From Pseudomonas sp. NY15181 (lineage in GTDB: Bacteria > Pseudomonadota > Gammaproteobacteria > Pseudomonadales > Pseudomonadaceae), in the NCBI RefSeq assembly GCF_048068055.1, contig NZ_JBLUPT010000005.1, positions 260,509 through 324,508 of the forward strand: 64,000 nucleotides of DNA. Reading direction: 5' to 3'. The position numbers and the translations under genes were made by a program. Under the pieces are notes generated by a model, which worked only from the letters and a program-made list of their open reading frames with translations, was not told the DNA's origin and did not search any database. Every line of letters begins with the position of its first letter. Within the stretch, counting starts at the first letter, position 1. This document shows positions 23,409 to 64,000 of this stretch, in pieces.

Positions 23409-27000
<3,592 letters not shown>

Positions 27001-45074: not shown

Positions 45075-45089
45075 GCGAGCCCTCACTGA

Positions 45090-46454
<1,365 letters not shown>

Positions 46455-46515
46455 TCGGAGCGGCGTTCGCCGGTCCGGATTAAACGTGTGAAGCCTGACT
46501 TCTAAGGTTGAGGGT

Positions 46516-47634: not shown

Positions 47635-47646
47635 GGGGGGGGATTC

Positions 47647-48105: not shown

Positions 48106-48107
48106 GT

Positions 48108-48140
48108 GAGAAGGGCGGGTGACCGCCCTTTCTTTTTGTC
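48108..48140 (+). terminator. rho-independent terminator
   Basis: GAAGGGCGGGTGACCGCCCTTTCTTTTTGT. Confidence 0.75.
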
Positions 48141-48192
48141 TGCAGGAAAGCTTTGCCTGTGGATAACTCGTTTGAGAGATAAATCGCAGGCA

Positions 48193-48230
48193 ATAAAAAA
48201 CCGGCCCTGGGGCCGGTTTTTCAAGAACGG
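48193..48230 (-). terminator. rho-independent terminator after rpsT
   Basis: AAAAACCGGCCCCAGGGCCGGTTTTTTATT on minus strand. Confidence 0.75.
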
Positions 48231-48235
48231 AACGC

Positions 48236-48505
48236 TTACGCGGTGGCCAGGGCCTTCACGTGGGCGTTCAGGCGGCTCTTGTGACGAGCGGCCTTGTTCT
48301 TGTGGATGATGCCTTTGTCGGCCATGCGGTCGATGACCGGTACGGCGGCAACCAGAGCGGCCTGGGCCTTCGGCAGGTCCTTGGCGTCGACTGCTTTGAC
48401 TACGTTCTTGATGTAGGTACGAACCATGGAACGCAGGCTGGCGTTGTGGCTGCGACGCTTCTCAGCCTGTTTGGCGCGTTTTTTGGCGGAAGGTGTGTTG
48501 GCCAC
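48236..48505 (-). CDS. rpsT: 30S ribosomal protein S20
   Basis: [26 protein letters not shown]..., 89 aa. Confidence 0.95.
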
Positions 48506-48758
48506 CGTCGAGCTCCTCGAAAAAAACTTGGGATGTTGCGAATAAATTAAGGCCGCGAATAATGCCGTTGCATCAGGGCCTTGTCAAGGGTATGCGCGGC
48601 CGCCGACGAGTGGTGCGACGGGCGCACGCTGGCCGCCGGATGGGGTGATTTATTCGCCCCGCGGCCCTACACTGCTGCGCTTCGCCTGGCAGCTGAGCTT
48701 TCGCTCAAGGCCAGTGCCGCGCCCGGCAGGGTCGGCCATTCTACCAGTTCTGGACGCT

Positions 48759-50297
48759 ATGAACCTACTCAAGTCGCTGGCCGCGGTCAGCTCGATGACC
48801 ATGATCTCGCGGGTGCTCGGTTTCGTGCGCGACACCATAGTCGCGCGCATGTTCGGCGCCGGCATGGCCACCGATGCCTTCTTCGTCGCCTTCAAGCTGC
48901 CCAACCTGCTGCGCCGCATCTTCGCCGAAGGCGCGTTCTCCCAGGCCTTCGTGCCGATCCTGGCTGAATACAAGACCCAGCAGGGCGAGGAGGCGACCCG
49001 CACCTTCATCGCCTATGTATCCGGCCTGCTGACGCTGATCCTGGCGCTCGTCACCGTCCTCGGCATCCTGGCCGCGCCCTGGGTGATCTGGGTGACGGCG
49101 CCCGGCTTCGTCGATTCGACCGAGAAGTTCGAGCTCACCAGTTCCCTGCTGCGGGTGACCTTTCCTTATATCCTGCTGATCTCGCTGGCGTCCCTGGCGG
49201 GAGCGATCCTCAATACCTGGAACCGCTTCTCGGTGCCGGCCTTCGTGCCGACACTGCTGAACGTCAGCATGATCCTGTTCTCGCTGTTCCTCACGCCGTA
49301 CTTCGACCCGCCGATCATGGCGCTGGGCTGGGCAGTGCTGGCCGGCGGCCTGGCGCAGCTGCTTTACCAACTGCCGCACCTGAAGAAGATCGGCATGCTG
49401 GTGCTGCCGCGCATCAATCTGCGTGATTCCGGCGTGTGGCGCGTGCTCAAGCAGATGGGGCCGGCGATCCTCGGCGTCTCGGTCAGCCAGATTTCGCTGA
49501 TCATCAACACCATATTCGCCTCTTTCCTGGTCGCCGGTTCCGTGTCCTGGATGTACTACGCGGACCGCCTGATGGAGCTGCCGTCCGGTGTGCTGGGCGT
49601 GGCTCTGGGCACCATCCTGCTGCCGTCCCTGGCCAAGACCTACGCCAGCGATGATCGCCACGAGTATTCGCGCCTGATGGACTGGGGCCTGCGCCTGTGC
49701 TTCCTGCTGGTGCTGCCGTGCTCCCTGGCCCTGGCGGTGATCGCCGAGCCGTTGACCGTCGCGCTGTTCCAGTACGGCAAGTTCAGCGCCCACGACGCCC
49801 TGATGACCCAGCGCGCGCTGATCGCCTATGCGGTCGGCCTGCTCGGGATCATCCTGGTGAAAGTGCTGGCTCCGGGCTTCTACGCGCGGCAGAACATCAA
49901 GACGCCGGTGAAGATTGCACTGTTCACCCTGGTTTCCACCCAGTTGATGAACCTGGTATTCATCGGTCCGCTCAAACATGCCGGCCTTGCCCTGGCGATC
50001 AGCCTGGCGGCCTGCCTGAACGCCGGGCTGCTGTTCTGGCAGTTGCGCAAGCACCAGTTGTTCGAGCCGCAGCCAGGCTGGGGCAAGTTCATCGCGAAAT
50101 TGGTGATATCTGTACTGGTGATGTGCGCCGTCCTGGTCGGCATGATGTACGTCATGCCGGCCTGGGACGAGGGCGGGATGACGATTCGCCTGGTGCGTCT
50201 GGGCGCGCTGGTGGTGGCCGGCGTGGTCGCCTATTTCGGTATGCTGGCGCTGCTGGGCTTCCGTCTGCGGGACTTCTCCCGCCGCGCGGTGCTGTAA
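48759..50297 (+). CDS. murJ: lipid II flippase MurJ (MviN)
   Basis: ATG at 48759 gives [35 protein letters not shown]..., 512 aa, 14 TM. Confidence 0.95.
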
Positions 50298-50403
50298 CCT
50301 TCGCCGGGCAAAGCATTGCATCCGCTTTCGGCGACGGCATTTTGCCTGTCGCACGGCGGCGGGTGTGGGTATAATCGACCACTTTCTGAGCAATACGCGC
50401 GCT

Positions 50404-51342
50404 ATGCAGCTGCTTCGAGGCCTTCACAACCTGCGGCCCCTGTCCGGGGGCTGTGTCGCCACCATCGGTAATTTCGACGGCGTCCATCTCGGCCACCAGG
50501 CGATCCTGGGGCGTCTGCGCGAGCGTTCGCTGGAGCTGGGCGTGCCCAGCTGTGTGGTGATCTTCGAGCCGCAGCCGCGCGAGTACTTTGCGCCGGATGC
50601 CGCGCCGGTACGCCTGACTCGCCTGCGTGAGAAGCTCGAACTGCTGCGCCAGTATGGCGTCGATTTCGTTCTCTGCCTGGCGTTCAATCGCCGCCTGCGC
50701 GAGCTGTCGGCCGCCGAGTTCGTCCGCCAGGTGCTGGTGGAGGGCCTGCGGGTCCGCCATCTGGAAGTGGGCGACGATTTCCGCTTCGGCTGCGACCGTT
50801 CCGGCGACTTCGCCTTCCTGGTCAAGGCCAGCGCGGAGCAGGGCTTCACCGTCGAAGCCGCCACCACCGTAGAAGTCGACGGTATGCGCGTGAGCAGCTC
50901 GCGCATCCGCAAGGACCTGGCCGACGGCGACCTGCACATGGTCGAGCGCCTGCTGGGTCGTCCGTATCGCCTGAGCGGCCGTGTGCTGCACGGGCAGAAG
51001 CTGGGCCGCACGCTGGGTTCGCCCACCGCGAACATCCAGCTCAAACGCCGCAAGGCGCCGCTCAATGGGGTTTACCTGGTCAGCACCCTGGTGGCTGGCC
51101 AGCGCTGCAACGGGGTTGCCAACATCGGCACCCGACCGTCTGTGAATGGCGACGGCCGGCCCCACCTGGAAGTGCATCTGCTGGATTTCGCTGGCGACCT
51201 TTACGGCCAGCATCTGGACATCACTTTCCACCAGAAGCTGCGTGATGAGCAGCGTTTTGCCTCGCTGGAGGCACTCAAGGCGGCCATCCTCGCCGACATC
51301 GCCGCCGCCCGGGCCTATTGGCTGGGCCAACCGCTTGATTGA
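50404..51342 (+). CDS. ribF: bifunctional riboflavin kinase / FMN adenylyltransferase
   Basis: ATG at 50404 gives MQLLRGLHNLRPLSGGCVATIGNFDGVHLGHQ, collinear with E. coli RibF (312 aa). Confidence 0.95.
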   Translation: MQLLRGLHNLRPLSGGCVATIGNFDGVHLGHQAILGRLRERSLELGVPSCVVIFEPQPREYFAPDAAPVRLTRLREKLELLRQYGVDFVLCLAFNRRLRELSAAEFVRQVLVEGLRVRHLEVGDDFRFGCDRSGDFAFLVKASAEQGFTVEAATTVEVDGMRVSSSRIRKDLADGDLHMVERLLGRPYRLSGRVLHGQKLGRTLGSPTANIQLKRRKAPLNGVYLVSTLVAGQRCNGVANIGTRPSVNGDGRPHLEVHLLDFAGDLYGQHLDITFHQKLRDEQRFASLEALKAAILADIAAARAYWLGQPLD

Positions 51343-51363
51343 AGATCCTGAACAGGCCCTGAG

Positions 51364-54198
51364 ATGACCGATTACAAAGCCACTCTGAACCTTCCCGAAA
51401 CCGACTTCCCGATGAAAGCCGGCCTGCCGCAGCGCGAGCCGCAGACCCTCAAGCTCTGGAACGACATTGGCCTGTACCAGAAGCTGCGGAAGATTGGCGA
51501 AGGTCGCCCGAAATTCATCCTGCACGATGGCCCGCCCTACGCCAACGGCAGCATCCACATCGGTCACGCGGTCAACAAGATCCTCAAGGACATCATCGTC
51601 CGCTCCAAGACCCTGGCCGGCTACGACGCCCCCTACGTGCCGGGCTGGGACTGCCACGGCCTGCCGATCGAGCACAAGGTCGAGACCACCCACGGCAAGA
51701 ACCTGCCGGCGGACAAGACCCGCGAGCTGTGCCGCGAATACGCCGCCGAGCAGATCGAAGGGCAGAAGGCCGACTTCATCCGCCTGGGCGTGCTGGGCGA
51801 GTGGGACAACCCCTACAAGACCATGGCGTTCGCCAACGAGGCCGGTGAAATCCGCGCGCTGGCCGAGATGGTCAAGCAGGGCTTCGTGTTCAAGGGCCTG
51901 AAGCCGGTGAACTGGTGCTTCGACTGCGGTTCGGCCCTGGCCGAGGCGGAAGTCGAGTACGCCGACAAGAAGTCCGACGCCATCGACGTCGCCTTCCCGG
52001 TGGAAGACGCAGACAAGCTGGCCGCCGCCTTTGGCCTGGCGAGCCTGTCCAAGCCGGCCGCCATCGTCATCTGGACCACCACCCCCTGGACCATCCCGGC
52101 CAACCAGGCGCTGAACGTCCACCCCGAATTCACCTACGCGCTGGTCGATACCGGTGAGCGCCTGCTGGTGCTGGCCGAAGAGCTGGTCGAGTCCTGCCTG
52201 CAGCGTTATGGCCTGGAAGGCCAGGTCATCGCCACCGCACAAGGTGAAGCGCTGGACCTGATCCGCTTCCGCCACCCGTTCTACGAGCGCTTCTCGCCGG
52301 TCTACCTGGCCGAGTACGTCGAGCTGGGCGCCGGCACCGGCGTGGTTCACTCCGCCCCGGCCTACGGCGAGGACGACTTCCGTACCTGCAAGCAGTACGG
52401 CATGGTCAACGACGACATCCTCAGCCCCGTGCAGAGCAACGGCGTGTACGTGGCCGACCTGCCGTTCTTCGGCGGCCAGTTCATCTGGAAGGCCAACCCG
52501 GCCATCGTCGCCAAGCTGGACGAAGTGGGCGCGCTGCTCAAGCACGCCAGCATCAGCCACAGCTACATGCACTGCTGGCGCCACAAGACCCCGCTGATCT
52601 ACCGCGCCACCGCGCAGTGGTTCGTCGGCATGGACAAGCAGCCGGAAGCCGGCGCCACCCTGCGTGAGCGCGCGCTGCAGGCCATCACCGAAACCGATTT
52701 CGTGCCCAACTGGGGCCAGGCGCGCCTGCACGGCATGATCGCCGGCCGTCCGGACTGGTGCATCTCGCGCCAGCGCAACTGGGGCGTGCCGATTCCGTTC
52801 TTCCTGCACAAGGCCACCGGCGAGCTGCACCCGCGTACCGTCGAGCTGATGGAAGCGGTTGCCCAGCGCGTCGAGCAGTCGGGCATCGAGGCCTGGTTCA
52901 AGCTCGACGCCGCCGAACTGCTGGGCGATGAAGCCGCGCAGTACGACAAGATCAACGACACCCTGGACGTCTGGTTCGACTCCGGCACCACCCACTGGCA
53001 CGTGCTGCGCGGCTCCCACGCCGAGCTGGGCCATGCCAGCGGTCCGGCCGCCGACCTCTACCTGGAAGGCTCCGACCAGCATCGCGGCTGGTTCCACTCG
53101 TCCTTGCTGACCGGCTGCGCCATCGACGGCCACGCGCCGTACCGCCAGTTGCTGACCCACGGCTTCACCGTGGACGAGTCGGGCCGCAAGATGTCCAAGT
53201 CGCTGGGTAACGTGATCGCCCCGCAGCAGGTTACCGACACGCTGGGCGCCGACATCCTGCGCCTGTGGGTTTCCGCCACCGACTACTCGGGCGAGATGGC
53301 GGTTTCCCAGACGATCCTGCAGCGCAGCGCCGATGCCTATCGCCGCATCCGCAACACCGCGCGCTTCCTGCTTTCCAACCTGTCCGGCTTCGACCCGGCC
53401 AAGGACCTGCTGCCCAACGACGAGCTGCTGGCCCTGGACCGCTGGGCCATCGACCGAGCGCTGCAGCTGCAGCGCGAGCTGGAAGAGGCCTACCGCGACT
53501 ACCGCTTCTGGAACGTCTACTCCAAGGTGCACAACTTCTGCGTGCAGGAGCTGGGCGGCTTCTACCTGGACATCATCAAGGACCGCCAGTACACCACCCA
53601 GGAAAACAGCGTCGCCCGCCGTTCCTGCCAGACCGCGCTGTTCCACATCGCCGAGGCCCTGGTGCGCTGGATCGCCCCGATCCTGGCGTTCACCGCCGAG
53701 GAAATCTGGAGCTTCCTGCCGGGCGAGCGCGCCGAGTCGGTGATGCTGACCACCTGGTATGACGGCCTGTCCGAGCTGCCGGCCGACGCCGAACTGGACC
53801 GCGCCTACTGGGACGAAGTCATGGCCGCCAAGGCTGCCGTGAACAAGGAACTGGAGAACCAGCGCAGCGCCAAGACCATCGGCGGCAACCTGCAGGCCGA
53901 GATCACCCTCTACGCCGAAGATTCCCTGGCCAAGCGCCTGGAGAAACTGGGCAACGAGCTGCGCTTCGTGCTGATCACCTCCGCCGCCACCGTCGCGCCG
54001 CTGGCCGACGCGCCGGCCGACGCGGTGGAGAGCGAACTGCCGGGCCTGAAGCTGAAGGTGGCCAAGTCCGCCCACGCCAAGTGCGGCCGTTGCTGGCACT
54101 TCCGCGCCGACGTCGGCAGCTATGCCGCGCACCCGGAACTGTGCGGCCGCTGCGTTGAGAACATCGATGGCGCCGGCGAGGTCCGCCACTATGCCTGA
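51364..54198 (+). CDS. ileS: isoleucyl-tRNA synthetase
   Basis: 944 aa; HIGH ([11 protein letters not shown]) and KMSKS motifs; C-terminal zinc-binding CGRCWH. Confidence 0.97.
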
Positions 54199-54694
54199 TC
54201 GTTTCGGCCGCCTTGGCTGGCTGTGGATCACCGTGCTGGTGTTCGTGCTGGACCAGGTGAGCAAGGCCTTCTTCCAGGCTGAGCTGACCATGTACCAGCA
54301 GATCGTGGTCATCCCCGATCTGTTCAGCTGGACCCTGGCCTACAACACTGGCGCGGCCTTCAGCTTCCTGGCCGATGGCTCGGGCTGGCAGCGCTGGCTG
54401 TTCGCCCTGATCGCCATCGTGGTGAGCGCCGTGCTGGTGGTCTGGCTCAAGCGCCTGAAGCGCGGCGAGACCTGGCTGGCCATCGCCCTGGCCCTGGTGC
54501 TGGGCGGTGCGCTGGGCAACCTGTACGACCGCATCGTGCTCGGTCACGTGGTCGACTTCATCCTGGTGCACTGGCAGAACCGCTGGTATTTCCCGGCGTT
54601 CAACCTGGCCGACAGCGCCATCACCGTCGGCGCCATCATGCTGGCGCTGGATATGTTCAAATCGAAGAAGTCCGGAGAAACCGCCCATGGCTGA
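54191..54694 (+). CDS. lspA: lipoprotein signal peptidase II
   Basis: ATG at 54191 (8-nt overlap with ileS) gives [25 protein letters not shown]..., 167 aa; conserved LGNLYDR and FNLADSAI motifs. Confidence 0.95.
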
Positions 54695-55139
54695 GTCTTC
54701 TGCAACCATTCAGCGTATCGGTGCGGATACCCAGGTCACCCTGCATTTCGCCCTCAAGCTGGAAGACGGCAATGTCGTCGACAGCACCTTCGACAAGCAG
54801 CCGGCCACCTTCAAGGTCGGCGACGGCAACCTCCTGCCGGGCTTCGAGCAGGCGCTGTTCGGCCTCAAGGCCGGCGACAAGCGCACCCTGAACATCCAGC
54901 CGGAGCAGGGCTTCGGCCAGCCGAACCCGGCCAACGTGCAGGTGATGCCGCGCGACCAGTTCCAGGACATGGAGCTGGCCGAGGGCCTGCTGGTGATCTT
55001 CAACGACGCCGCCAAGACCGAGCTGCCGGGCATCGTCAAAGCTTTCGATGACCAGCACGTCACCATCGATTTCAACCATCCGCTGGCCGGCAAAACGCTG
55101 GCCTTCGATGTCGATATCATTGACGTCAAACTTGCCTGA
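54687..55139 (+). CDS. fkpB: FKBP-type peptidyl-prolyl isomerase FkpB (SlpA-like)
   Basis: ATG at 54687 gives [55 protein letters not shown]..., 150 aa. Confidence 0.9.
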   Translation: MAESSATIQRIGADTQVTLHFALKLEDGNVVDSTFDKQPATFKVGDGNLLPGFEQALFGLKAGDKRTLNIQPEQGFGQPNPANVQVMPRDQFQDMELAEGLLVIFNDAAKTELPGIVKAFDDQHVTIDFNHPLAGKTLAFDVDIIDVKLA

Positions 55140-55235
55140 ATGAGCGGGCGGCCCGTGTAAGCGGGCCGTTACGCATGCGGCGAAGAACTCCTACCGGCCC
55201 CTTGTGGGCCGGCTTGCTTAGCACCCGAGGCCACC

Positions 55236-56180
55236 ATGCAAATCAAACTCGCCAATCCCCGCGGCTTCTGCGCCGGCGTCGACCGGGCGATCGAGATCGT
55301 CAACCGCGCCCTCGACGTGTTCGGCCCACCGATCTATGTGCGCCATGAAGTGGTGCACAACAAGTTCGTGGTGGAAAATCTGCGCAATCGCGGTGCCGTG
55401 TTCGTCGAGGAACTCGACCAGGTGCCGGACGACACCATCGTCATCTTCAGCGCCCACGGCGTTTCCCAGGCCGTGCGCAAGGAGGCCGAGAATCGCGGCC
55501 TGAAGGTCTTCGATGCGACCTGCCCGCTGGTGACCAAGGTGCATATGGAAGTGGTGCGCTACAGCCGCGACGGCCACGAATGCATCCTGATCGGCCACGA
55601 GGGCCACCCGGAAGTGGAAGGCACCATGGGCCAGTACGATGCGTCGAGTGGCGGCGCCATCTACCTGGTGGAAGACGAGGAGGATGTGGCTGCGCTGGAG
55701 GTTCGCAACGCCGAGGCGCTGCACTTCGTGACCCAGACCACCCTGTCGATGGATGACACCTCCAAGGTGATCGACGCCCTGCGCGCCAAGTTCCCGCACA
55801 TCCAGGGCCCGCGCAAGAACGACATCTGCTACGCCACCCAGAACCGCCAGGACGCGGTGAAGGAACTGGCCGACCAGTGCGATGTGGTGCTCGTAGTCGG
55901 CAGTCCTAACAGCTCCAACTCTAACCGCCTGCGCGAGCTGGCCGAGCGCATGGGCACCCCCGGCTATCTGATCGACGGCGCCGAGGACCTGAAGAAAGAG
56001 TGGTTCGATGGTGTGCAGCGCGTCGGCATCACCGCCGGCGCCTCGGCCCCGGAAGTCCTGGTGCGCGGTGTGATCCAGCAACTGCGTGACTGGGGCGCGG
56101 AGCCCGAGGTGGAACTGGATGGCCGGGAGGAGAACATTACCTTCTCGATGCCCAAGGAACTGCGGGTGAAGGCTGTCTGA
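55236..56180 (+). CDS. ispH: 4-hydroxy-3-methylbut-2-enyl diphosphate reductase
   Basis: [19 protein letters not shown]..., 314 aa, three conserved Cys for the 4Fe-4S cluster. Confidence 0.95.
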
Positions 56181-56185
56181 GCCGA

Positions 56186-56226
56186 GTCCGGAAACAAAAA
56201 AGCCCGATCCTGTGATCGGGCTTTTT
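56186..56226. terminator. bidirectional rho-independent terminator (ispH / pilE)
   Basis: AAAAAAGCCCGATCCTGTGATCGGGCTTTTTCATGG. Confidence 0.8.
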
Positions 56227-56242
56227 CATGGGTGGCTATCCG

Positions 56243-56710
56243 CTAGCGGCGCCAGCACTGGCCCAGGGTGGCGCCACTACCTTGGCCTTTCACGCCGGCG
56301 TTGTTCAATGTCAGCGTTCCGCAGCTGTCACCGGACATCGCCCCCTTGGGTGTTGCACTCAATACATAGGTGGTTGACGTCGGGTTTCCGGAGAAGGCCA
56401 GGGTGTAGTACTTGCTCGCCCCATCCTTGGGGGCCTCGCTGAAGGGGAGGGTGACCGCGGCATTGGCGCTGGTGGTATAGCGGCCGTTGGCGGTGTAGTA
56501 GCGCTCCATGAACTGGGACAGCTCCATGAGCGACGCCTGGGCATCGGCGCGGCGCGCCTTCCTCACATACTCCTGGTAGGACGGATAGGCCACGGCGGAG
56601 ATGATGGCGACGATCGCCACCACCACCATCAGCTCGATCAGCGTAAAACCGTGGTTGCGCTGGCAGCTTCCGAGCCTGGGTACAGCTGGGGACATCGTTT
56701 CTTTCTCCAT
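56243..56710 (-). CDS. pilE: type IV minor pilin PilE
   Basis: Track ORF 56243..57148 is over-extended. Start taken at MEKET (155 aa): this ATG overlaps the pilY1 stop as TAATG; a second in-frame Met lies 5 codons downstream. Class III signal with GFTLIELMVVVAIVAIISAVAYPSYQEY and C-terminal Cys pair (...DSCGTL...GQCWRR); leader is unusually long (15-20 aa). Confidence 0.8.
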   Translation of the reverse strand: MEKETMSPAVPRLGSCQRNHGFTLIELMVVVAIVAIISAVAYPSYQEYVRKARRADAQASLMELSQFMERYYTANGRYTTSANAAVTLPFSEAPKDGASKYYTLAFSGNPTSTTYVLSATPKGAMSGDSCGTLTLNNAGVKGQGSGATLGQCWRR

Positions 56711-59700
56711 TATCGATTCACTTCGCGCCAGGACAATCTTCCCGAGGCTCGATTCCCGGGCGGCACGGGGGCGCACTGCGGCTCCCCTCCCTTGGAACCG
56801 ACGTAGCAGATCAGGTCGTCGCCATCGTCCTTGCTGAAGAAGCTCGGGGTCTTGATGACGCCGTTGGTCGAGTCGCTGATGCCTGAGTAAGGGATCTTGT
56901 TGCCTTGTTCGTCGGTGTAGTAGTCGTTGTCGTCGATCACGCCGTCGCCGTTGGCATCGAAGTAGTTGTACGACAGCCGACCATTGCCCAGGGCATCCAG
57001 TGCTATGAGCGAACTGATACCTCCACCGGTGCAGGGGTCGTCGGAAGGCGTCAGCGAAGTGAAGGTCACAGCGCCCCCGCGCAATATGGGGCGGGAGACC
57101 ATACGCTCGCCGGTAATGGTATTGGTGCCGCCTTCGGCCTGTTTCCATTGCAGGTCCAGGTACCAGCCGCTCTTAGCGGTGGTCATGGCCTGGTTACTCA
57201 CCACCGTCCGCCGGTCGCCACCGACGGTTTGCCGGTGGAGGATCTTCTGTTCCAGTAAGGTGTCGCGGCTGATTGTCGTACCGGAGTCGATGATGCCGTA
57301 GAAGGATTCAACTCGCTGGTTCTGCTGCAGGTCGGCATCGGTGGTCTGGTAGAAACTTCCTGTGCCGAACAGCACCATCATCTTGCCATCCCTGTTCAGG
57401 GCGACGGCCAGCGGAGCTGTGATCGGCTGTGCTCGATTGGAACTATCGCGAGCCTGGAACAGTGAGTTGCCGTTCAGCGAGCCGGGCGCGCCCCAGTTGC
57501 TCGGATTGGTACCGTTGATATCCAGCCGCCACAGGTTGCCCGAGGTATCGCCGACATAGATGCGATCGGCTACCCGGTCGTTGTTAACATCGACAGGTGC
57601 CGGGTCGGCCAGGCCGCCTGTGGTAGTGATGGTGAATTGCTTGATTACCGATCCATCTGCGGCATCGAGAATCCACACCTTGCCGCTGCTGACTGCGCTG
57701 TTGATGAATCCGCTGGTGACAATCACGCCAAACTTGCCGTTCGCCAGGGGGGCGATCGCAGGGCGATGCATCGGATTGCCCATTTCCGGCGCGGTGAACT
57801 CCCATAGCACCTTGCTGGCGTTCATGTTGCTCGGGTCGCTGACATCCAGCGCGAACACGCTTTTGCCGCCAGCGCCGGTGGTGCCAACGACGATGGTCTT
57901 CCAGCTCGAGTCGATATAGACGTCGGAGTAGTTGGGAGATCCATCGACGTAGTAGCGGTGACTGTAAGTGGGGGACGTGAGTTGATAGAGGTCGTCGACG
58001 ACAGTGCGAGGCACATAGGCGAAGAGTTCGCTGCCACCATTGCTTAGCGTGCCGTCGAAACCGTGGATCATTCCGTCGTTCGCCCCCAGGACCACCAGCG
58101 GCTTCTTGCTCTTGTAGCTGCTGCTGGCGCGATAGGTGAGGTAGGCCGGGCCGGCGTTGCCCCATTGGCTGCCGGCCAGCAGGTTGTAGCCGAAGTCCTG
58201 GTTGGCGATGTATTGCGGGTCGGAATTGACGATGTCGCCCAGCCGGCTGCCGCGCTCGCGGTAAGGGTTGGCCGGATTGCTGGTGCTGACTTCCCGGCTC
58301 CTGTCTCCGCGCAGGAAGGCCAGGCGGTTCTGTGCTTCCGCTTCGGTGACGGAGACCGTGGCGTCGGCGGTGCGCCTGAGCGCTACTTTGGTGTCGGCAT
58401 CCAGGGAGCCCCAGGTGAAGTCGACACCGGTGGTGCTGGTGAAATAGGTGTTCCCAGCCTGGCCCGCGAGCGAATTGACGGTGAAGATCTTGCGCGCCGA
58501 AAGGTCAGTGAGAGCATCCAGTCGGGTGGCGGCGCTCCAGCTGGGAGTCGTCGCTACCACGCCATTGCCGTTGACGCTCTTGGCCTGCAGGTCGCCGCTC
58601 CAGTGTTCGCTGTTGTACTGCGACTGGTAGATCGCGCTGCCGGTATCCAGCTGCGTGGAGTTGGTCGCCAGCGAGGTGGTCGAACTGCGCACTTCCTGGA
58701 CGATCTTGGCGAAGGCGGTCTTCAGGCTGCTGACCATTTTTTCCGCGTCGCTGGCGACGAAGAAGTTGTCCGGGCGCTTGTCGCCGGTCGACAGCGTTTC
58801 CCCGTTGGTCCACCAGAGGTCATCGGTCAGGCTGGCGGTCGAGCTGTAGGGGTCGAAATTGGTGGGGACCTTGAAGCCGCCGTATTTCGCGGCGAGCCAG
58901 TACTGATTCTTGGCGCGGGCCTCCAGTTTCTGAGCTTCCCGAACATCCACCCAGTAGGTGGAGACGGTCTGCTTGCCGCTCATCTGCGGGCGTATGTCCT
59001 TGGTGTGCGAGTCATAGGCCAGGCCCGCGATATAGGCGGAGTTATTGCGCCCGGTGTAGTTGTCGGAGCTCTGGTTGAGACTGACACCTTCGAGACTACC
59101 CACCTTGCCGGTGGCCTTGACCGCGTCGACGGTAGTGTCGTTCCTGACTTCTTCAGGCTTGGTCGGCTCCCGGTAGGCAGAGGTAGTTCCGGGCAGGTTC
59201 TTGTCGACGTGGGTGTTCACGTCACCGATCCCGAGAATGACGTTCTTCTGGCAGGCATAGGTGATCGGATCACTCCACGTGGTGACGACGGGGAATCCAT
59301 CGGCCATCGTGTAGACGTTGGAGCTGATGTCGCTGTACTCGGGCACGTTGCCCTGATTTTTGAAGTAGCGGATCGCTGTGTAGTAGAGCTCGCTGACCGG
59401 GTCGAGGCTCTTGTGTGCCTGGTCGGTCATCGAACCGAATTTGTTGATGTAGTTGATGACGCCGCTACGGCTGACGCTGCCCCCGGTGGCCGTGGCATCG
59501 GCAGGGTTGGGGTTGTCGGCGAAGACGCCGGTCGTGGGGTCCCACTCCCTCTGTGTGTTGCTGTCCCCACCTTCGCCCAGGGTCGGGCCGATGTACTTCT
59601 GATTGGCACGCAGGACGCCACCATCGCGAAGTTCGTTGGAGTCATTCAGGTAGCTGAAGGCGCTGTAGCGGAGGGTGTTGGAATACTGTTGCAGCAGCCC

Positions 59701-60615
59701 TTCGGGCTTGTAGTTGCTGCCATAGCGCTTGCAGTTGCTTTCCGGCATGGCGCTGTCGCATACCTTGACCTGCACACGCACGCGGAAAATGCTCTTGGTC
59801 TTCTTGCTGACGGTATAGGACGTCACCAGCCCGCCGGTCCCCCATTGGGCGGCAGTCCCTTCGTCATAGTCCACCCAGCGCCCGGTGTTCTCGGTGCCGC
59901 CGTCGGAACCTCCGAGCCCGTCGGAGGCATTGGCGAACATCATGTCGTAGTTGAGGCCCTGCATGCGGACGTAGAACGCTCCCCAGGCGCTGGAGGCGGG
60001 GGTCGCGCCGGTGATTTCCGATTTGGGCAGCATTCCTTGCCCGCTGGTCATCCGGTTGCCGGCACTGCTCTGGCCGGAGTGCCGGGCTTTCTGCAGGACG
60101 GTGAGGCTGGCGGTGTCCTGTATCCGGTTACCCCCGGTCAAGGCGCTGCGGAAGGGGTCGATGGTCGGGGTCCCCGCCCAGTTCAGGAAGTTGCCGCTCC
60201 ATTCCTTCTTGGCGGCGCCGATGTTGCACTTGCGGGCATTGGCCGTTCCGACCGGATAGAAATAGGTGCCGACGATTTTCTGGGCATCGACGTTTTTCAG
60301 CGCGCTGTCCGCGCTGTAGTCGTAGAGATTTTTGCTCGAGTCGTAGGTGTAGCGATAGCACTTTTCCGGATCGAAATAGCCGATGTACTTGCTGCTCGAG
60401 CTGTAGGCGCCCAGGTTTGCGATGGACAGGATGGTGGGCCATTCTACCGACGGTGTCAGCGCCAGGCTGCCCGGTACGTTGGAGCTGCCCAGCAGCATGG
60501 GAGTCTGGGATACCGCGGCCTGAACCTCGATCGCCTGCAGGAAGATCACGCTGAAGCTGAGGAACGACGAGCACCAGACGCTCAGGGTCTTCGGGGTTAC
60601 TAGTTTCTTGAGCAT
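56710..60615 (-). CDS. pilY1: PilY1-family type IV pilus tip adhesin / biogenesis factor
   Basis: 1301 aa; signal peptide; N-terminal vWA-like region; C-terminal PilY1 beta-propeller with EF-hand-like Ca loop DANGDGVIDDND; RGD tripeptide (FLRGDRS). Confidence 0.85.
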   Translation of the reverse strand: MLKKLVTPKTLSVWCSSFLSFSVIFLQAIEVQAAVSQTPMLLGSSNVPGSLALTPSVEWPTILSIANLGAYSSSSKYIGYFDPEKCYRYTYDSSKNLYDYSADSALKNVDAQKIVGTYFYPVGTANARKCNIGAAKKEWSGNFLNWAGTPTIDPFRSALTGGNRIQDTASLTVLQKARHSGQSSAGNRMTSGQGMLPKSEITGATPASSAWGAFYVRMQGLNYDMMFANASDGLGGSDGGTENTGRWVDYDEGTAAQWGTGGLVTSYTVSKKTKSIFRVRVQVKVCDSAMPESNCKRYGSNYKPEGLLQQYSNTLRYSAFSYLNDSNELRDGGVLRANQKYIGPTLGEGGDSNTQREWDPTTGVFADNPNPADATATGGSVSRSGVINYINKFGSMTDQAHKSLDPVSELYYTAIRYFKNQGNVPEYSDISSNVYTMADGFPVVTTWSDPITYACQKNVILGIGDVNTHVDKNLPGTTSAYREPTKPEEVRNDTTVDAVKATGKVGSLEGVSLNQSSDNYTGRNNSAYIAGLAYDSHTKDIRPQMSGKQTVSTYWVDVREAQKLEARAKNQYWLAAKYGGFKVPTNFDPYSSTASLTDDLWWTNGETLSTGDKRPDNFFVASDAEKMVSSLKTAFAKIVQEVRSSTTSLATNSTQLDTGSAIYQSQYNSEHWSGDLQAKSVNGNGVVATTPSWSAATRLDALTDLSARKIFTVNSLAGQAGNTYFTSTTGVDFTWGSLDADTKVALRRTADATVSVTEAEAQNRLAFLRGDRSREVSTSNPANPYRERGSRLGDIVNSDPQYIANQDFGYNLLAGSQWGNAGPAYLTYRASSSYKSKKPLVVLGANDGMIHGFDGTLSNGGSELFAYVPRTVVDDLYQLTSPTYSHRYYVDGSPNYSDVYIDSSWKTIVVGTTGAGGKSVFALDVSDPSNMNASKVLWEFTAPEMGNPMHRPAIAPLANGKFGVIVTSGFINSAVSSGKVWILDAADGSVIKQFTITTTGGLADPAPVDVNNDRVADRIYVGDTSGNLWRLDINGTNPSNWGAPGSLNGNSLFQARDSSNRAQPITAPLAVALNRDGKMMVLFGTGSFYQTTDADLQQNQRVESFYGIIDSGTTISRDTLLEQKILHRQTVGGDRRTVVSNQAMTTAKSGWYLDLQWKQAEGGTNTITGERMVSRPILRGGAVTFTSLTPSDDPCTGGGISSLIALDALGNGRLSYNYFDANGDGVIDDNDYYTDEQGNKIPYSGISDSTNGVIKTPSFFSKDDGDDLICYVGSKGGEPQCAPVPPGNRASGRLSWREVNR

Positions 60616-60637
60616 GTAGGAGTTCTCGAAAGTCCTG

Positions 60638-61108
60638 TCAGCGCTTGATGTACATCGACTTCAGTTGGTAGGTGGAGGCGGTGCTGCTGTCGGCGTTCTG
60701 CACGGCGCCAAATCCCTGTGCTTCCACTCTTATGACAGTCGTGGTGATAGGGGTGCCGGCTTCCGTTGATTCTCCCGATCTCCTGTAGACAACTCCCGGC
60801 AGGGTGGTCAGCCGGTACTTGGGAGTGGCCAGCCCCGAGATGTCGCTGGCGTCGTCCCAGGAGCTGCTGGAGACATAGTTCTGCCAATGGGTCACCGACT
60901 GGCCCTTGACGACGGCTTCGCCCTGCCGAATCGCCGCTTCCGCGGCCTGTAGAGCATGACTTTCGTCGCGAAGATTGCCGGCCATGCGTTCCTGCAGGGT
61001 GGTGCTGCGCATGCTGCTGATGCCGATGATAGTGAGGAGCAGGAGCATGATCAGTGCGACGACCAGTACAGCACCCTGTTGCGCCCGAGGCGCCCTGTTG
61101 ATGTTCAT
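60638..61108 (-). CDS. pilX: type IV minor pilin PilX
   Basis: 156 aa; prepilin-like N-terminus ...AQQGAVLVVALIMLLLLTIIGISSMRSTTLQERMAGN. Confidence 0.75.
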   Translation of the reverse strand: MNINRAPRAQQGAVLVVALIMLLLLTIIGISSMRSTTLQERMAGNLRDESHALQAAEAAIRQGEAVVKGQSVTHWQNYVSSSSWDDASDISGLATPKYRLTTLPGVVYRRSGESTEAGTPITTTVIRVEAQGFGAVQNADSSTASTYQLKSMYIKR

Positions 61109-62001
61109 GGCAGGCGGTTCCTGAGGCCGATGGTCGAGGTGAATGTGCGGGTCATGGGGTTGGCGTTATCCGTGCTGACGGCCGTGAGTGTGATCTGGGC
61201 CGACACCACCGTTGACCAGTCGGAGATGCTCGAGGCATCCACGTAGTCCCCGGAAACAGCACCATTGACGTTGCCGACGGCGTATTTGATCTGCAGGTCC
61301 TGGATGCCCTCGGCAACTTCCTCGGCGGATGCGCCGCTGTTGTAGCGAATTCGGTAGAGCGAGGGGCTGCCCGCCGAGTTGTTATTGACGAAGTAGAGGG
61401 TGCTTTCGAACTTGAGGATGTCCGAGGTGCTCGGGTAGATATGCCCGAAGGACGCTCCGTTCACCGATACGGCGGAGTTGCTGGCTGCCGAATTGTTGCG
61501 GAACAGGTCGCATCCTATGGGATCGGACAGGACCAGAAGGGTCCCCTGGGCGATTCCGGTCGCAGCTGTCGTACTGATGCTGTCGGTGGAGGAGGCTGCC
61601 GAGGGAGTCGCCCCGCTGGCTGCGGCCGCGTGCTTTACCAGGATGGCATCCGTCCCGCTGCGGCGAGTCCCGGAGAACCAGTTCGGGATGCTCTGGCCGC
61701 TCTCCCAGCCCTGAAGGGCCATGTCCAGGGTGTAGCGTGCATCCGTGAGGCCGGTGAGATTGTTTAGCTCGCTGACACATTCGCCCTTGTAACCAGCATT
61801 GCGCAGGTCATAGGTGAGGAACGTCATGGCAAAGCGGCCATTTTCCTGCACGCGGGAGAGGGCGGTGTTGGAGCTGAACGTCTGCTTGCTGGAGAGGAAA
61901 ACCTGCAATACGCCGCCGATCAGCAGCAGCCCCAACAGCATGGCGATCATCAGTTCGACCAGGGACAGGCCGGACTGTGATGAGTGGCTAGCGAGCTTCA
62001 T
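61105..62001 (-). CDS. pilW: type IV minor pilin PilW
   Basis: 298 aa; class III leader ...SQSGLSLVELMIAMLLGLLLIGGVLQVFLSSKQ; 4-nt overlaps with pilX and pilV. Confidence 0.8.
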   Translation of the reverse strand: MKLASHSSQSGLSLVELMIAMLLGLLLIGGVLQVFLSSKQTFSSNTALSRVQENGRFAMTFLTYDLRNAGYKGECVSELNNLTGLTDARYTLDMALQGWESGQSIPNWFSGTRRSGTDAILVKHAAAASGATPSAASSTDSISTTAATGIAQGTLLVLSDPIGCDLFRNNSAASNSAVSVNGASFGHIYPSTSDILKFESTLYFVNNNSAGSPSLYRIRYNSGASAEEVAEGIQDLQIKYAVGNVNGAVSGDYVDASSISDWSTVVSAQITLTAVSTDNANPMTRTFTSTIGLRNRLP

Positions 62002-62456
62002 AGGCGAGTCCGGTACTCGAAGGTTTCCGAGGGGGTGTTGGTGTCGCTGGTTGCCTTGATGCGAGCCCGGTTGTCATTCCAGCGGATGGAAATGGTGAAA
62101 ATGTTGGCGTTCAAGGCGATCTTGCCGGTGCCATCGGGCAGCGACTCCGCCAGGCGATTGAGCCACTCGGCCTTGTCTTTGGCCGCACGGCTGCCGCTCA
62201 CGCCGTTGCTGGTGGAGGAGGCCGGGAAGTCGCTCATGCTGTAGTCGCCCGCCAGCGCCTTGTCGCGGTTGGCGCGCATACGATCGGCCATGTCATTGGC
62301 GAGGATGCTGGCTTGGGAGCGGTAGTAGGCGCCCTGATTGGTCTGAACGCTGGTGGCCTGCAGGCCCGCCATGCCAAGCAGGCCCACGGCGAGAATCACC
62401 ACGGCGATCAGAACTTCGAGCAGGGTTGCACCCTGCTGTGTGCGCAGGCTCATCAC
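61998..62456 (-). CDS. pilV: type IV minor pilin PilV
   Basis: 152 aa; ...TQQGATLLEVLIAVVILAVGLLGMAGLQATSVQTNQ. Confidence 0.8.
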   Translation of the reverse strand: MMSLRTQQGATLLEVLIAVVILAVGLLGMAGLQATSVQTNQGAYYRSQASILANDMADRMRANRDKALAGDYSMSDFPASSTSNGVSGSRAAKDKAEWLNRLAESLPDGTGKIALNANIFTISIRWNDNRARIKATSDTNTPSETFEYRTRL

Positions 62457-62941
62457 TCGCAGTCCGCCTTCTCGATCTTGCTCAGTCCGCTCAGCGCCAC
62501 GGACAGCGTGCGCTTCTGGTTACCGCTGCAGCTCGGTTGTGTGACCGAGAGGCTGGTGGCGGTACTGACCATACCGTTGCTCTGATAGATGACCCCGGCG
62601 TTAGGGCCGGTGATCGCAACGTCGGAGGGCGCTTGCCAAACCTTGATGATGTCGCCGCCGCTCTGCCGGATCAGCCAGCCAGCGCTCCAGTCGGTGCCGT
62701 TCTCGCAGTTGTCGCCCGCTGCGTTCCGACGGCAGAGGGTCACCCGGTTGTGCCGCATCACGGCTTCCGAACGCGCCAGTTGCAGGGCGGACTGCAGCTC
62801 GGTGCTGGTCGTGGTGAGCTTGCTGTCACGGATGGTGCTGGTGAAGGACGGTGCGGCGACGCTGATGAGGATGGCCAGGACGACGATGGTCACCATCAAC
62901 TCGATCAGCGTGAATCCTGCCGAATGCATCGGGCGCGACAT
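62453..62941 (-). CDS. fimU: type IV minor pilin FimU (GspH-like)
   Basis: 162 aa; MSRPMHSAGFTLIELMVTIVVLAILISVAAPSF. Confidence 0.8.
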   Translation of the reverse strand: MSRPMHSAGFTLIELMVTIVVLAILISVAAPSFTSTIRDSKLTTTSTELQSALQLARSEAVMRHNRVTLCRRNAAGDNCENGTDWSAGWLIRQSGGDIIKVWQAPSDVAITGPNAGVIYQSNGMVSTATSLSVTQPSCSGNQKRTLSVALSGLSKIEKADCE

Positions 62942-63091
62942 GGCGCATTCCTCGCGTTTTAAGTCGCGGCAATGCTGCCGTCTGTCGTAGGAAAAGTCCT
63001 AACTAGACAGATGACCGTTCGTTATAGCGCGATGTTCGGTCATGCGATTGGTGCATATGTGACAGGTGTCGCGACACGAGTGTGACGCGGG

Positions 63092-63604
63092 TCAGCGAGG
63101 GCAAAGTGGGTCCGTTTCGCTGGATTCCCGGCGAATCCTTCCGGCCCTGTTGATCATGATCCGGGAAGCGGATTGTGTACGGGCGCAGAGCACGAAATGC
63201 CCGGAGTGGAAGGCCCCGCTGGGCTGGATGCTGTAGCCGCCGGGGGTGTAGTGGACGTAGCGGCGGGACGTGCTGTCCGGGATGACGGTGATGTGGGGAA
63301 GAGCCGCGTGAGTCGCCAGCAGTTGTTCGGCGGGGGCGCGAACACCGTTGTTGTTGCTGTCGACGAATAGCACCCAGCCCTGGGCCCAGTTGCCGCCGAG
63401 CGCGGCGATGCTGATCGGTTGCCCGCTCAGCACGGCCGTCGTCCGCGCCTGGTTCAGGGCGCCCTGCAGCTCCTGCGTGGCGACCTGCAACCGATGCTCT
63501 TCGAGCAGTCGGCCGAAGCCCGGTGCGGCAAGGGAGAGGGCGATGGCGAGGATCGCCAGCGCTACCAGCAGTTCGATGAGGCTGAAACCCTTGTGTTTGA
63601 GCAT
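63092..63604 (-). CDS. fimT: type IV minor pilin FimT (GspH-like)
   Basis: 170 aa; MLKHKGFSLIELLVALAILAIALSLAAPGFGRLLEE; separated from fimU by ~150 bp. Confidence 0.8.
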   Translation of the reverse strand: MLKHKGFSLIELLVALAILAIALSLAAPGFGRLLEEHRLQVATQELQGALNQARTTAVLSGQPISIAALGGNWAQGWVLFVDSNNNGVRAPAEQLLATHAALPHITVIPDSTSRRYVHYTPGGYSIQPSGAFHSGHFVLCARTQSASRIMINRAGRIRRESSETDPLCPR

Positions 63605-63734
63605 GTCCGTGCCTGATTCTGGATTCTCCTCAGGGATTATTGGCGTTGCCTGTTTTGTGGCGTCTGATGCCGTTGTAGGGCGCTTCCGGGGTGGTTGTAG
63701 TTGTCGCCCGTCATGTGGACGCTCTCATTGCGCG

Positions 63735-64000
63735 GTATACCGCGTGCTTCCTGCTATCCAACCTATCCGTCCTGAACCCGGCTAAGGACCTGCTGCCCAA
63801 CAATCAGCTGCTGGCTCTAGACCGCTGGGCCATTGACCTGGCCTTGGTGTTGGGTGGTGCGCTGAGCAACCTGTACGACCGCATAGTGCTTGGTCACGTG
63901 TCGACTTCTTCCTGGTGCACTGGCAAACCGCTGGTATTTCCCAGCATTCAACCTGGCCGACAGCGCCATCACCGTCGGCGCCATCATGCTGGCGCTGGAT
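63735..64000 (+). pseudogene. degraded partial duplicate of the ileS-lspA locus (ileS internal fragment fused to lspA 3' half; runs off window end)
   Basis: ~63743-63840 aligns to ileS nt ~53361-53458 (~86% id) and 63841-64000 aligns to lspA nt ~54486-54652 (last ~75 nt ~97% id). The ~1 kb between them is missing, with the junction at shared GGCCATCG(A/C)CC. The copy is in the same orientation as the intact genes. Single-base deletions in the lspA-like part break the frame. Confidence 0.8.

What the first reader, a model, noticed from the sequence alone, without database searches (positions are those of the whole stretch)
63735..64000. Diverged, internally deleted second copy of ileS-lspA immediately beyond fimT, bracketing the minor-pilin cluster
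The last ~260 bp of the window reproduce an internal ~98-nt piece of ileS (cf. 53361-53458, ~86% identity) fused directly to the 3' half of lspA (cf. 54486-54660). The fusion point is an 11-bp microhomology GGCCATCG(A/C)CC, implying a ~1-kb deletion between short repeats in a once-complete duplicate. Single-base deletions show it is a pseudogene.

Divergence is mosaic: ~85-90% identity for most of it, but the final ~75 nt are ~97% identical to lspA, which hints at gene conversion with the intact copy.

The intact ileS-lspA-fkpB-ispH genes and this direct-orientation remnant therefore flank a ~9-kb segment containing the pilE-pilY1-pilXWV-fimU-fimT cluster. This is consistent with the minor-pilin locus having been acquired or rearranged via a duplication/recombination event at this housekeeping operon.
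Basis: seen in the sequence. Interest (0 to 1): 0.7.

Follow-up and report, generated by a model that had tools for sequence, protein, structure and literature searches.

The report
Decayed ileS-lspA fragment beside fimT
The last 262 bases of the window are a dead, internally deleted copy of parts of two housekeeping genes, most likely a scar from the event that placed a second, foreign-looking set of pilus-tip genes next to the resident set; it is real but an ordinary kind of relic.

Summary
Window 63739-63838 matches ileS 53356-53455 (86/100, no gaps). Window 63828-64000 matches lspA 54478-54652 (162/175, two 1-nt deletions). The two pieces meet at the microhomology GGCCATCG(A/C)CC, which implies a 1,033-nt deletion. 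The fragment is a pseudogene: truncated at its 5' end, frameshifted, 60% GC against 66-69% in the parent segments, and 18 of 23 substitutions are G/C to A/T.

The window is Pseudomonas sp. NY15181. Relatives without the remnant carry the same minor-pilin cluster in the same place, with fimT about 190 bp from thiO ("DAO"). So the bracketed cluster is ancestral, not an insert.

GenBank accession order places six more proteins between FimT and ThiO, just beyond base 64000. Three were identified as members of a second, divergent minor-pilin/PilY1 cluster. Fully sequenced relatives (L024, L018) show this layout: fimT, then a housekeeping-operon fragment (ispH'), then the second cluster, then a decayed fimT', then thiO.

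The remnant is therefore the decaying left flank of that second module. The two alleles of the ispH-fimT slot were probably joined in tandem by illegitimate recombination, then eroded by microhomology deletions. No tRNA or integrase is involved. The gene-conversion hint is unresolved. Interest is modest.

The parts
63739..63838 (+). ileS' fragment. It corresponds to ileS codons 665-697 (window 53356-53455), is truncated at the 5' end and has no start codon.
   Evidence: 86/100 identical, ungapped. In 12 of the 14 differences the resident base matches all 8 orthologs, so the change is on the remnant branch; 10 of the 14 are G/C>A/T.
63828..63838 (+). Deletion joint. The microhomology GGCCATTGACC is shared by ileS (GGCCATCGACC, from 53445) and lspA (GGCCATCGCCC, from 54478). 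It implies loss of 1,033 nt and is in codon phase in both genes.
   Evidence: Three-way alignment and overlapping BLAST hits.
63839..64000 (+). lspA' 3' fragment, corresponding to lspA 54489-54652. It has 1-nt deletions at 63899/63900 and 63925/63926 and is cut by the window end.
   Evidence: 162/175 identical with two gaps over 63828-64000. Substitutions are almost all G/C>A/T. The frame is broken.
63605..63738 (.). The fimT-proximal part of the fimT-thiO intergenic region. Homology to the same region in relatives stops at about 63738. That point is the left, illegitimate joint to ileS', with at most 1-2 nt of microhomology.
   Evidence: 80% identity to SCB32 L001 9865-9998. Alignments A2 and A3.
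63092..63604 (-). fimT, GspH/FimT-family minor pilin, 170 aa. It is 100% identical to MFV3306622.1 of Pseudomonas sp. NY15181.
   Evidence: Pfam GspH + N_methyl. Exact match P0001.
56243..62941 (-). Canonical minor-pilin operon: pilE (56243-56695), pilY1 (56710-60615), pilX (60638-61108), pilW (61105-62001), pilV (61998-62456), fimU (62453-62941).
   Evidence: NCBIfam and Pfam matches. Same order in relatives.
51364..56180 (+). Intact parent operon: ileS (51364-54198), lspA (54191-54694), fkpB (54687-55139), ispH (55236-56180). The parent segments of the remnant are 53356-53455 and 54478-54652.
   Evidence: NCBIfam equivalog matches. Exact NY15181 proteins. lspA start checked.

Best explanation
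The 262-nt stretch is a non-functional relic. It is what remains of the left flank ('ileS-lspA-fkpB-ispH) of a second minor-pilin/PilY1 module that sits between fimT and thiO in this genome, just beyond the window end.

Inferred history:
1. The slot between ispH and fimT exists in different alleles. One is the canonical pilE-pilY1-pilXWV-fimU set. The other is an alternative set with the order pilE-like, GspH-like, pilV, pilW, pilX-like, pilY1 on the opposite strand and a lower GC content.
2. A DNA segment carrying the alternative allele with its own flanks, starting inside ileS at codon 665 and ending in fimT/thiO, was joined in tandem to the resident allele. The most likely route is homology-facilitated illegitimate recombination of incoming DNA: a homologous crossover on the fimT/thiO side and an illegitimate joint (63738|53356) in the fimT upstream region.
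3. The duplicated housekeeping genes and the second fimT were redundant and decayed. Decay ran through microhomology-mediated deletions (GGCCATCG here; TCCCG in relatives) and point mutations, mostly G/C to A/T.

Shown directly: the remnant and its lesions, its absence from canonical relatives, and the full architecture in L024 and L018. Inferred from accession order and the matching L024 layout: the second cluster in NY15181 lying between fimT and thiO. Also inferred: the order of events and the recombination mechanism.
For: - The remnant and its lesions are in the sequence.
- It decays towards AT. In 19 of 23 substitutions the resident base equals the ortholog majority, and 18 of 23 are G/C>A/T. 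GC is 60% against 66-69% in the parent segments.
- The resident segments are 90-98% identical to their orthologs. The remnant is only 82-90% identical to those orthologs and 86-93% to the resident.
- The canonical arrangement without a remnant is seen in L001, L002/3, L006, L020, L022 and L023.
- The window is NY15181, and protein accessions rise along the + strand: IleS ..612, FkpB ..614, IspH ..615, PilX ..618, PilW ..619, FimU ..621, FimT ..622.
- Beyond FimT come alt GspH ..624, alt PilW ..626, alt PilX ..627 and ThiO ..629 on the same 348,999-nt contig. That leaves exactly six proteins between FimT and ThiO, the same number as the six alt genes of L024.
- None of these alt proteins is encoded in the window; the best matches there are 25-42% identical, to canonical genes.
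- L024 and L018 show fimT | upstream region | ispH' fragment | alt cluster | fimT' remnant + upstream region | thiO.
- The ispH' fragments of L018, L024 and L026 share derived substitutions, which points to one origin for the module.
- The joint in L018/L024 lies about 12 nt from the window's joint in the same intergenic region. This fits a later deletion of a window-like structure.
- The alt cluster has GC3 of 66-75%, against 76-86% for the canonical cluster and 85-92% for the housekeeping genes.
- There is no tRNA or integrase in the module at this site.
- Homology-facilitated illegitimate recombination is established in transformable Pseudomonas stutzeri and Acinetobacter, as cited in PMC5361080.
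Against: - The sequence beyond 64000 could not be retrieved. Adjacency of the second cluster in NY15181 rests on accession order and on analogy with L024 and L018.
- It is not known whether fkpB' or ispH' pieces follow.
- No genome with the alternative cluster alone directly downstream of an intact ispH was found, so the postulated donor allele is hypothetical.
- The AT-ward differences and the mild excess of synonymous changes (14 of 22 observed, 9.7 expected, P=0.028) do not separate decay in place from origin in a lower-GC donor.
- Which of the two clusters arrived second cannot be decided from these data.
- The joints in the window and in L018/L024 are not identical, so independent events at neighbouring sites are not excluded.
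Confidence: 0.72

Rival explanations
1. The canonical pilE-fimT cluster, together with the intact 3' ileS-lspA-fkpB-ispH, is the incoming DNA. It was inserted with a homologous crossover upstream in ileS and an illegitimate joint at 63738|53356. The remnant is then the recipient's original ileS-lspA, left stranded next to an older resident alternative cluster.
For: The architecture is symmetrical. Both clusters are flanked by an ileS..ispH copy on the left and a fimT copy on the right, so either unit could be the newcomer. At 53422 the remnant keeps the base found in all 8 orthologs, while the resident copy has a unique change. The canonical cluster exists in at least two exchangeable alleles: SCB32/NY15181 type and ATCC 13867/L024 type.
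Against: Every relative sampled without the double arrangement has the canonical cluster alone at this site. None has the alternative cluster alone. The alternative cluster, not the canonical one, is compositionally atypical. In 30_B the alternative cluster sits at a different locus while the canonical locus is undisturbed.
Confidence: 0.13
2. The event was purely intragenomic. The 10.4-kb segment 53356-63738 was duplicated in tandem by illegitimate recombination within one chromosome. The second copy's cluster was later replaced by the alternative cassette, or most of the second copy was deleted. No foreign flank was ever involved.
For: The joint links the fimT upstream region to an internal ileS position in direct orientation. 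That is the signature of a tandem-duplication joint. The remnant shares a resident-specific T at its last base, where all 16 orthologs have C. Most differences are changes private to the remnant.
Against: The second unit carries a cluster with a different gene order and strand and only 25-42% protein identity, so a further replacement event is needed. An identical 10-kb tandem repeat is unstable (general knowledge). The synonymous excess (P=0.028) and the lower GC of the module fit a flank that arrived already diverged.
Confidence: 0.13
3. The stretch is functional. It might encode a truncated LspA-like peptide or a regulatory RNA, or serve as a promoter element for fimT or the downstream cluster.
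For: It lies in a divergent promoter region about 135 nt upstream of fimT. A 16-nt near-palindrome, GCGCGGTATACCGCGT, spans the left joint.
Against: There is no start codon, the frame is broken twice, and it lacks the N-terminal half of LspA. There is no Rfam match. It is absent from all canonical relatives, and the corresponding flank is mostly deleted in L018 and L024 without loss of either cluster.
Confidence: 0.02

Closest known systems
Homology-facilitated illegitimate recombination (HFIR) in naturally transformable bacteria (de Vries & Wackernagel 2002, Acinetobacter; Meier & Wackernagel 2003, Pseudomonas stutzeri; both cited in PMC5361080)
   Same: One side is homologous (fimT/thiO). 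The other side is an illegitimate joint with little or no microhomology (63738|53356). The result adds DNA instead of replacing it. No integrase or tRNA is involved.
   Different: The mechanism is inferred from a decayed natural product and was not observed. The donor is unknown. The added DNA includes a duplicate of the recipient's own housekeeping flank, so an intragenomic tandem duplication gives the same joint.
Sequential displacement arrays at T6SS effector-immunity and Rhs loci, with orphan genes and stranded 3' gene ends (Kirchberger et al. 2017, PMC5361080)
   Same: A variable cassette sits between conserved flanks. New alleles are stacked next to old ones, leaving truncated duplicates of flank genes as fossils of each event.
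   Different: Here the cassette is a minor-pilin/PilY1 set and the stranded pieces are essential housekeeping genes (ileS, lspA, ispH). Only one stacking event is seen.
Bacteria with several minor-pilin/PilY1 sets, for example the three clusters of Myxococcus xanthus (PMC7541494, PMC8833165)
   Same: There is a second complete set of four minor pilins plus PilY1 besides the canonical one.
   Different: In this Pseudomonas clade the two sets are adjacent. The way the second set was joined is still legible from decayed flanks. Function of the second set was not tested.
Group-specific minor-pilin alleles and the pilin island of P. aeruginosa (Giltner et al. 2011, Environ Microbiol; recalled from memory, not read here)
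   Same: The fimU-pilVWXY1E region exists as divergent alleles exchanged between strains at a fixed chromosomal position.
   Different: Those are replacements at one slot. Tandem co-residence with housekeeping-gene remnants is, as far as I recall, not described there.

Membership tests
Duplicate-derived pseudogene fragment | Significant nucleotide homology to an intact parent gene in the same genome | tested here: met
   E=5e-29 for the ileS part and 1e-68 for the lspA part. The parent genes are intact and match the NCBIfam equivalogs.
Duplicate-derived pseudogene fragment | Disabling lesions: truncation, internal deletion, frameshifts | tested here: met
   It starts at ileS codon 665, has a 1,033-nt internal deletion and two 1-nt deletions.
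Duplicate-derived pseudogene fragment | Substitution pattern of relaxed selection | tested here: inconclusive
   18 of 23 changes are G/C>A/T and 19 of 23 lie on the remnant branch. However, synonymous changes are mildly over-represented: 14 of 22 against 9.7 expected, P=0.028.
Integrase-mediated genomic island flanked by direct repeats | tRNA or other attachment target at the boundary | tested here: not met
   No tRNA in window 45000-64000 or in L018 and L024.
Integrase-mediated genomic island flanked by direct repeats | Integrase or recombinase gene within the bracketed segment | tested here: not met
   Only pilin and PilY1 genes lie between ispH and thiO in the window and in L024.
Integrase-mediated genomic island flanked by direct repeats | The bracketed segment is absent from related genomes (empty site) | tested here: not met
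   Relatives without the repeat still carry the canonical cluster at the same place.
Simple tandem duplication | A novel joint links the distal end of the unit to its proximal start in direct orientation | tested here: met
   The fimT upstream region (63738) is joined to ileS 53356 on the same strand.
Simple tandem duplication | The second unit has the same gene content as the first | tested here: not met
   In L024 and L018 the second unit carries a different cluster (25-42% aa identity, other order and strand). NY15181 has close homologues of that cluster after FimT.
HFIR product | Illegitimate joint with 0 to a few nt of microhomology at one end | tested here: met
   At the left joint ...GGTATA|CCGCG... 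at most 1-2 nt are shared between the intergenic and ileS sequences.
HFIR product | Homologous anchor at the other end and a foreign donor | not testable with these tools
   The right end lies beyond the window. L024 and L018 show a fimT' remnant plus upstream region next to thiO. The alt cluster is compositionally atypical. No donor was identified.
Functional signal peptidase II (LspA, Peptidase_A8) | Complete, uninterrupted reading frame of about 167 aa | tested here: not met
   Only the region corresponding to the last third of lspA is present, and it has two frameshifts.

The most novel reading that the evidence does not exclude
The ispH-fimT interval may be a cassette-exchange slot for whole minor-pilin/PilY1 sets in the P. 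nitroreducens-related clade. On this reading, the NY15181 remnant preserves the original illegitimate joint of the event that stacked a foreign, lower-GC set beside the resident one. The module kept an ispH' tag and later moved to a tRNA-Leu/queA locus in strain 30_B. Gene conversion from the resident lspA still homogenises the 3' end of the dead copy. This would be a rare, datable step-by-step record of how bacteria gain a second pilus-tip complex without mobile-element machinery.
Probability: 0.35. Interest if true: 0.5.

Novelty: new member of a known kind. Interest (0 to 1): 0.33.

Why it matters
The fragment has no function by itself. Its value is as a fossil. It marks the exact joint and the original extent of the DNA that brought a second minor-pilin/PilY1 set next to the canonical one in a group of environmental Pseudomonas.

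Minor pilins and PilY1 determine pilus priming, adhesion, surface sensing and phage susceptibility. How strains gain or swap whole sets is therefore of some interest. The remnants show it happened here without integrases, by recombination at housekeeping flanks followed by microhomology deletions.

For annotation, it warns that the short lspA/ileS hits beside fimT are pseudogene pieces and not paralogues.

Tried and rejected
**Retrieving the sequence beyond 64000 (failed)**
- Exact-protein contig look-ups for FimT, IspH, FkpB and P0001 found nothing on record.
- The one genome-contig scan, with a FimT alignment, did not return NY15181.
- Two metagenome scans, one with a pattern for the deletion joint and one for the left joint, gave 0 hits.

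**Testing a foreign origin of the ileS' piece (uninformative)**
- The same peptide padded to 41 aa found no candidates.

**Readings rejected**
- Chance similarity: E-values of 1e-68 and 5e-29.
- Assembly artefact: the copy is diverged and carries indels, and analogous structures occur in independent assemblies.
- tRNA or integrase island.
- Known RNA family.
- An equivalent remnant in relatives with the canonical arrangement: none found.

**Considered and left open**
- Using codon-position and synonymous/non-synonymous counts to separate decay in place from a donor origin. The result is borderline (P=0.028).
- Identity on either side of 53356 cannot separate the rivals. Only about 300 nt upstream of 53356 is available in the relatives, and a crossover could lie anywhere further upstream.

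Full report
**1.

BLASTN of window 63600-64000 against the rest of the window gives two strong direct-orientation hits.
- Window 63739-63838 matches 53356-53455: 86/100 identical, no gaps, E=5e-29.
- Window 63828-64000 matches 54478-54652: 162/175 identical, two 1-nt gaps, E=1e-68.

A self-comparison of the whole window finds no other comparable repeat. Family searches confirm the surrounding genes.
- On the + strand: murJ, ribF, ileS (51364-54198), lspA (54191-54694), fkpB (54687-55139), ispH (55236-56180).
- On the - strand: pilE, pilY1, pilX, pilW, pilV, fimU, fimT (63092-63604).

The two hits overlap in an 11-nt microhomology. The remnant reads GGCCATTGACC, ileS reads GGCCATCGACC and lspA reads GGCCATCGCCC. 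This implies a 1,033-nt deletion. The deletion happens to keep the codon phase of both genes, since GCC ATC is a codon pair in each.

The copy starts at ileS codon 665 without a start codon. It has two single-base deletions and needs three frames to be read. It is a pseudogene fragment. No Rfam family matches.

**2. How it has changed**

Orthologous segments from 8 (ileS) and 16 (lspA) related loci were aligned to it.
- The resident segments are 90-98% identical to their orthologs.
- The remnant is only 82-90% identical to those orthologs and 86-93% identical to the resident.
- Of 23 substitutions outside the joint, the resident base equals the ortholog majority in 19.
- 18 of the 23 are G/C>A/T and one is A/T>G/C.
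- GC falls to 60%, from 66-69% in the parent segments.

Two sites are informative about history. At 53422 the remnant keeps the base of all orthologs while the resident is uniquely derived. At the last base (54652/64000) the remnant and the resident share a T where all 16 orthologs have C.

Given the observed mutation spectrum, 9.7 +/- 2.0 synonymous changes are expected and 14 of 22 are seen (P=0.028). Part of the divergence may therefore have arisen under purifying selection, either in a donor or while the copy was still intact. The evidence for this is weak.

The last 54 nt are identical to the resident. Under uniform placement of the differences this has a nominal P of about 0.002-0.01. 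It is compatible with gene conversion, but the test is post hoc and the sequence stops at 64000.

**3. Identity of the genome and what lies beyond the window**

FimT is 100% identical to a protein of Pseudomonas sp. NY15181. IleS, FkpB, IspH, PilX, PilW and FimU are exact NY15181 proteins as well.

Their GenBank accessions rise along the + strand: IleS MFV3306612, FkpB ..614, IspH ..615, PilX ..618, PilW ..619, FimU ..621, FimT ..622. The DNA beyond 64000 could not be fetched.

Cluster look-ups place four further NY15181 proteins on the same 348,999-nt contig:
- ..624, a GspH/FimT-family pseudopilin (P0189);
- ..626, a second PilW (P0156, 318 aa);
- ..627, a PilX-like protein (P0193);
- ..629, glycine oxidase ThiO (P0211), the "DAO" neighbour of fimT in relatives.

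So exactly six proteins lie between FimT and ThiO. None of these proteins is encoded in the window. If accession order follows gene order, which is usual for such submissions, a second minor-pilin/PilY1 cluster starts just after the remnant. It also follows that no intact lspA, fkpB, ispH or fimT duplicate is annotated there.

**4. Comparative anatomy**

The canonical arrangement is fimT about 190 bp from a divergently transcribed thiO, followed by pilR and pilS, with no ileS/lspA-like DNA in between. It is seen in these sources:
- Pseudomonas sp. SCB32 (L001);
- ATCC 13867 (L002/3);
- strain 30_B (L006);
- a JGI contig (L020);
- two Logan contigs (L022, L023).

Homology of the window to that intergenic region runs from fimT to about 63738 and stops exactly where the ileS-like piece begins. 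At most 1-2 nt of microhomology is present there. The same synteny holds in P. aeruginosa PAO1 (PA4546-PA4562; from memory). The canonical cluster is therefore in its ancestral place.

Contig L024 (Logan SRR17222326) shows the double arrangement completely, in this order:
- ispH;
- canonical pilE...fimU-fimT;
- the fimT upstream region;
- a 73-nt ispH' fragment;
- six genes on the other strand: pilE-like (129 aa), GspH-like (180), PilV (191), PilW (317), PilX-like (181), PilY1 (1049);
- a fimT' remnant and a second copy of the upstream region;
- thiO.

L018 (GCA_050789225.1), L019 and L025 agree with this layout. L018 has a longer ispH' and a frameshifted fimT'. The accessions of Pseudomonas sp. 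LA21 (IleS ..805, alt PilW ..818, alt PilX ..819, ThiO ..821) indicate the same tandem layout.

The alternative proteins are only 25-42% identical to the canonical ones. Their genes have GC3 of 66-75%, against 76-86% for the canonical cluster and 85-92% for ileS-ispH.

In 30_B the alternative cluster sits at another locus, between an EAL-domain gene and tRNA-Leu/queA. It is again preceded by an ispH' fragment, there inverted. The ispH' fragments of L018, L024 and L026 share derived substitutions that functional ispH genes lack, so the module and its ispH' tag have one origin.

The L018/L024 joint reads ...GGTCGCTCC(CG)|TTCCCGCA..., with the microhomology TCCCG. It lies about 12 nt nearer to fimT than the window's joint. 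That is what a later deletion of a window-like structure would leave.

**5. Best explanation**

Both clusters are flanked on the left by an ileS..ispH copy and on the right by a fimT copy with its upstream region. Next to the canonical cluster these flanks are intact. Next to the alternative cluster they are decayed. This is the structure expected if two alleles of one slot were joined in tandem by a joint between the fimT upstream region of one and an internal ileS position of the other.

The most economical route has three parts:
- DNA carrying the alternative allele with its flanks was integrated;
- on the fimT/thiO side this was by homologous recombination, and at 63738|53356 by an illegitimate joint;
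- the redundant ileS', lspA', fkpB', ispH' and fimT' copies then decayed.

This is homology-facilitated illegitimate recombination, known from transformable Pseudomonas stutzeri and Acinetobacter (cited in PMC5361080). NY15181 keeps the longest surviving piece of the left flank. L018 and L024 have lost everything up to the 3' part of ispH.

No tRNA or integrase is involved at this site.

Steps shown: the remnant, its lesions, the comparative architectures and the shared ispH' mutations. Steps inferred: adjacency in NY15181, the direction of transfer and the mechanism.

**6. Rivals**

(a) The canonical cluster is the newcomer and the remnant is the recipient's original gene. The symmetry of the structure allows this. 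However, all single-cluster relatives carry the canonical set, and the alternative set is the compositionally odd one.

(b) An intragenomic tandem duplication of 53356-63738 was followed by cassette replacement. The joint fits, but an extra event is needed and the copy looks pre-diverged.

(c) The stretch has a function. Nothing supports this.

**7. Comparison with what is known, and verdict**

Stacked cassettes with stranded flank fragments are known from T6SS effector-immunity and Rhs arrays (PMC5361080). Multiple minor-pilin/PilY1 sets are known from Myxococcus and many other bacteria (PMC7541494, PMC8833165). Exchangeable minor-pilin alleles are known in P. aeruginosa (Giltner et al. 2011, from memory).

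This case is a new example of known processes. The finding is real, but it is a pseudogene scar. Interest is modest, and lies in the unusually legible record of how a second pilus-tip gene set was gained.

Noticed in passing
L024 8510-14660; L018 3123-9513; beyond window base 64000 in NY15181: A second, divergent minor-pilin/PilY1 cluster lies between fimT and thiO in several related genomes. Its order is pilE-like, GspH-like, pilV, pilW, pilX-like, pilY1. It is 25-42% identical in protein to the canonical set and has GC3 of 66-75%. From accession order it is also present in NY15181.
   Followed up: yes
L026 7989-14852 (Pseudomonas sp. 30_B): The same alternative cluster sits at a different locus, between an EAL-domain gene and tRNA-Leu(caa)/queA-tgt-yajC-secDF. 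An inverted ispH' fragment precedes it and shares derived mutations with the fragments at the fimT site. This suggests the module relocated together with its housekeeping tag.
   Followed up: partly
L024 8360-8375; L018 9648-9663; L026 8354-8369: A perfect TGTGA-N6-TCACA palindrome (CRP/Vfr-type consensus) is conserved in the AT-rich leader about 135-150 nt upstream of the alternative pilE-like gene in all three contexts. The motif does not occur anywhere in the 64-kb window.
   Followed up: no
L018 2396-2917 and 10003-10630: The two fimT copies of L018 are reciprocally mosaic relative to the window's fimT. In the thiO-proximal pseudogene the 5' part is 91% identical and the 3' part 76%. In the intact copy the upstream region and 5' part are 80% identical and the rest is much closer: 92% over the whole 1.6-kb match, which also covers fimU and the start of pilV. 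This suggests recombination between the copies.
   Followed up: partly
window 56243-62941 compared with L002, L020, L023, L024: The canonical pilV-pilW-pilX-pilY1 genes come in at least two non-alignable alleles. NY15181, SCB32 and L022 have proteins of 152/298/156/~1301 aa. ATCC 13867, L020, L023 and L024 have 186/281/208/~1240 aa. The flanks (ispH, fimU, fimT) are 81-94% identical, which indicates cassette-like exchange.
   Followed up: partly
window 63730-63745: A 16-nt near-palindrome, GCGCGGTATACCGCGT, straddles the joint between the fimT upstream region and ileS'. Half of it comes from each side.
   Followed up: no
window 18607-18812; 11461-11494; 23502-23560 and 24453-24511: The self-comparison found other repeats: a roughly 200-nt imperfect palindrome (72%), a 34-nt palindrome (94%), and a 59-nt direct repeat about 950 nt apart (83%).
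   Followed up: no
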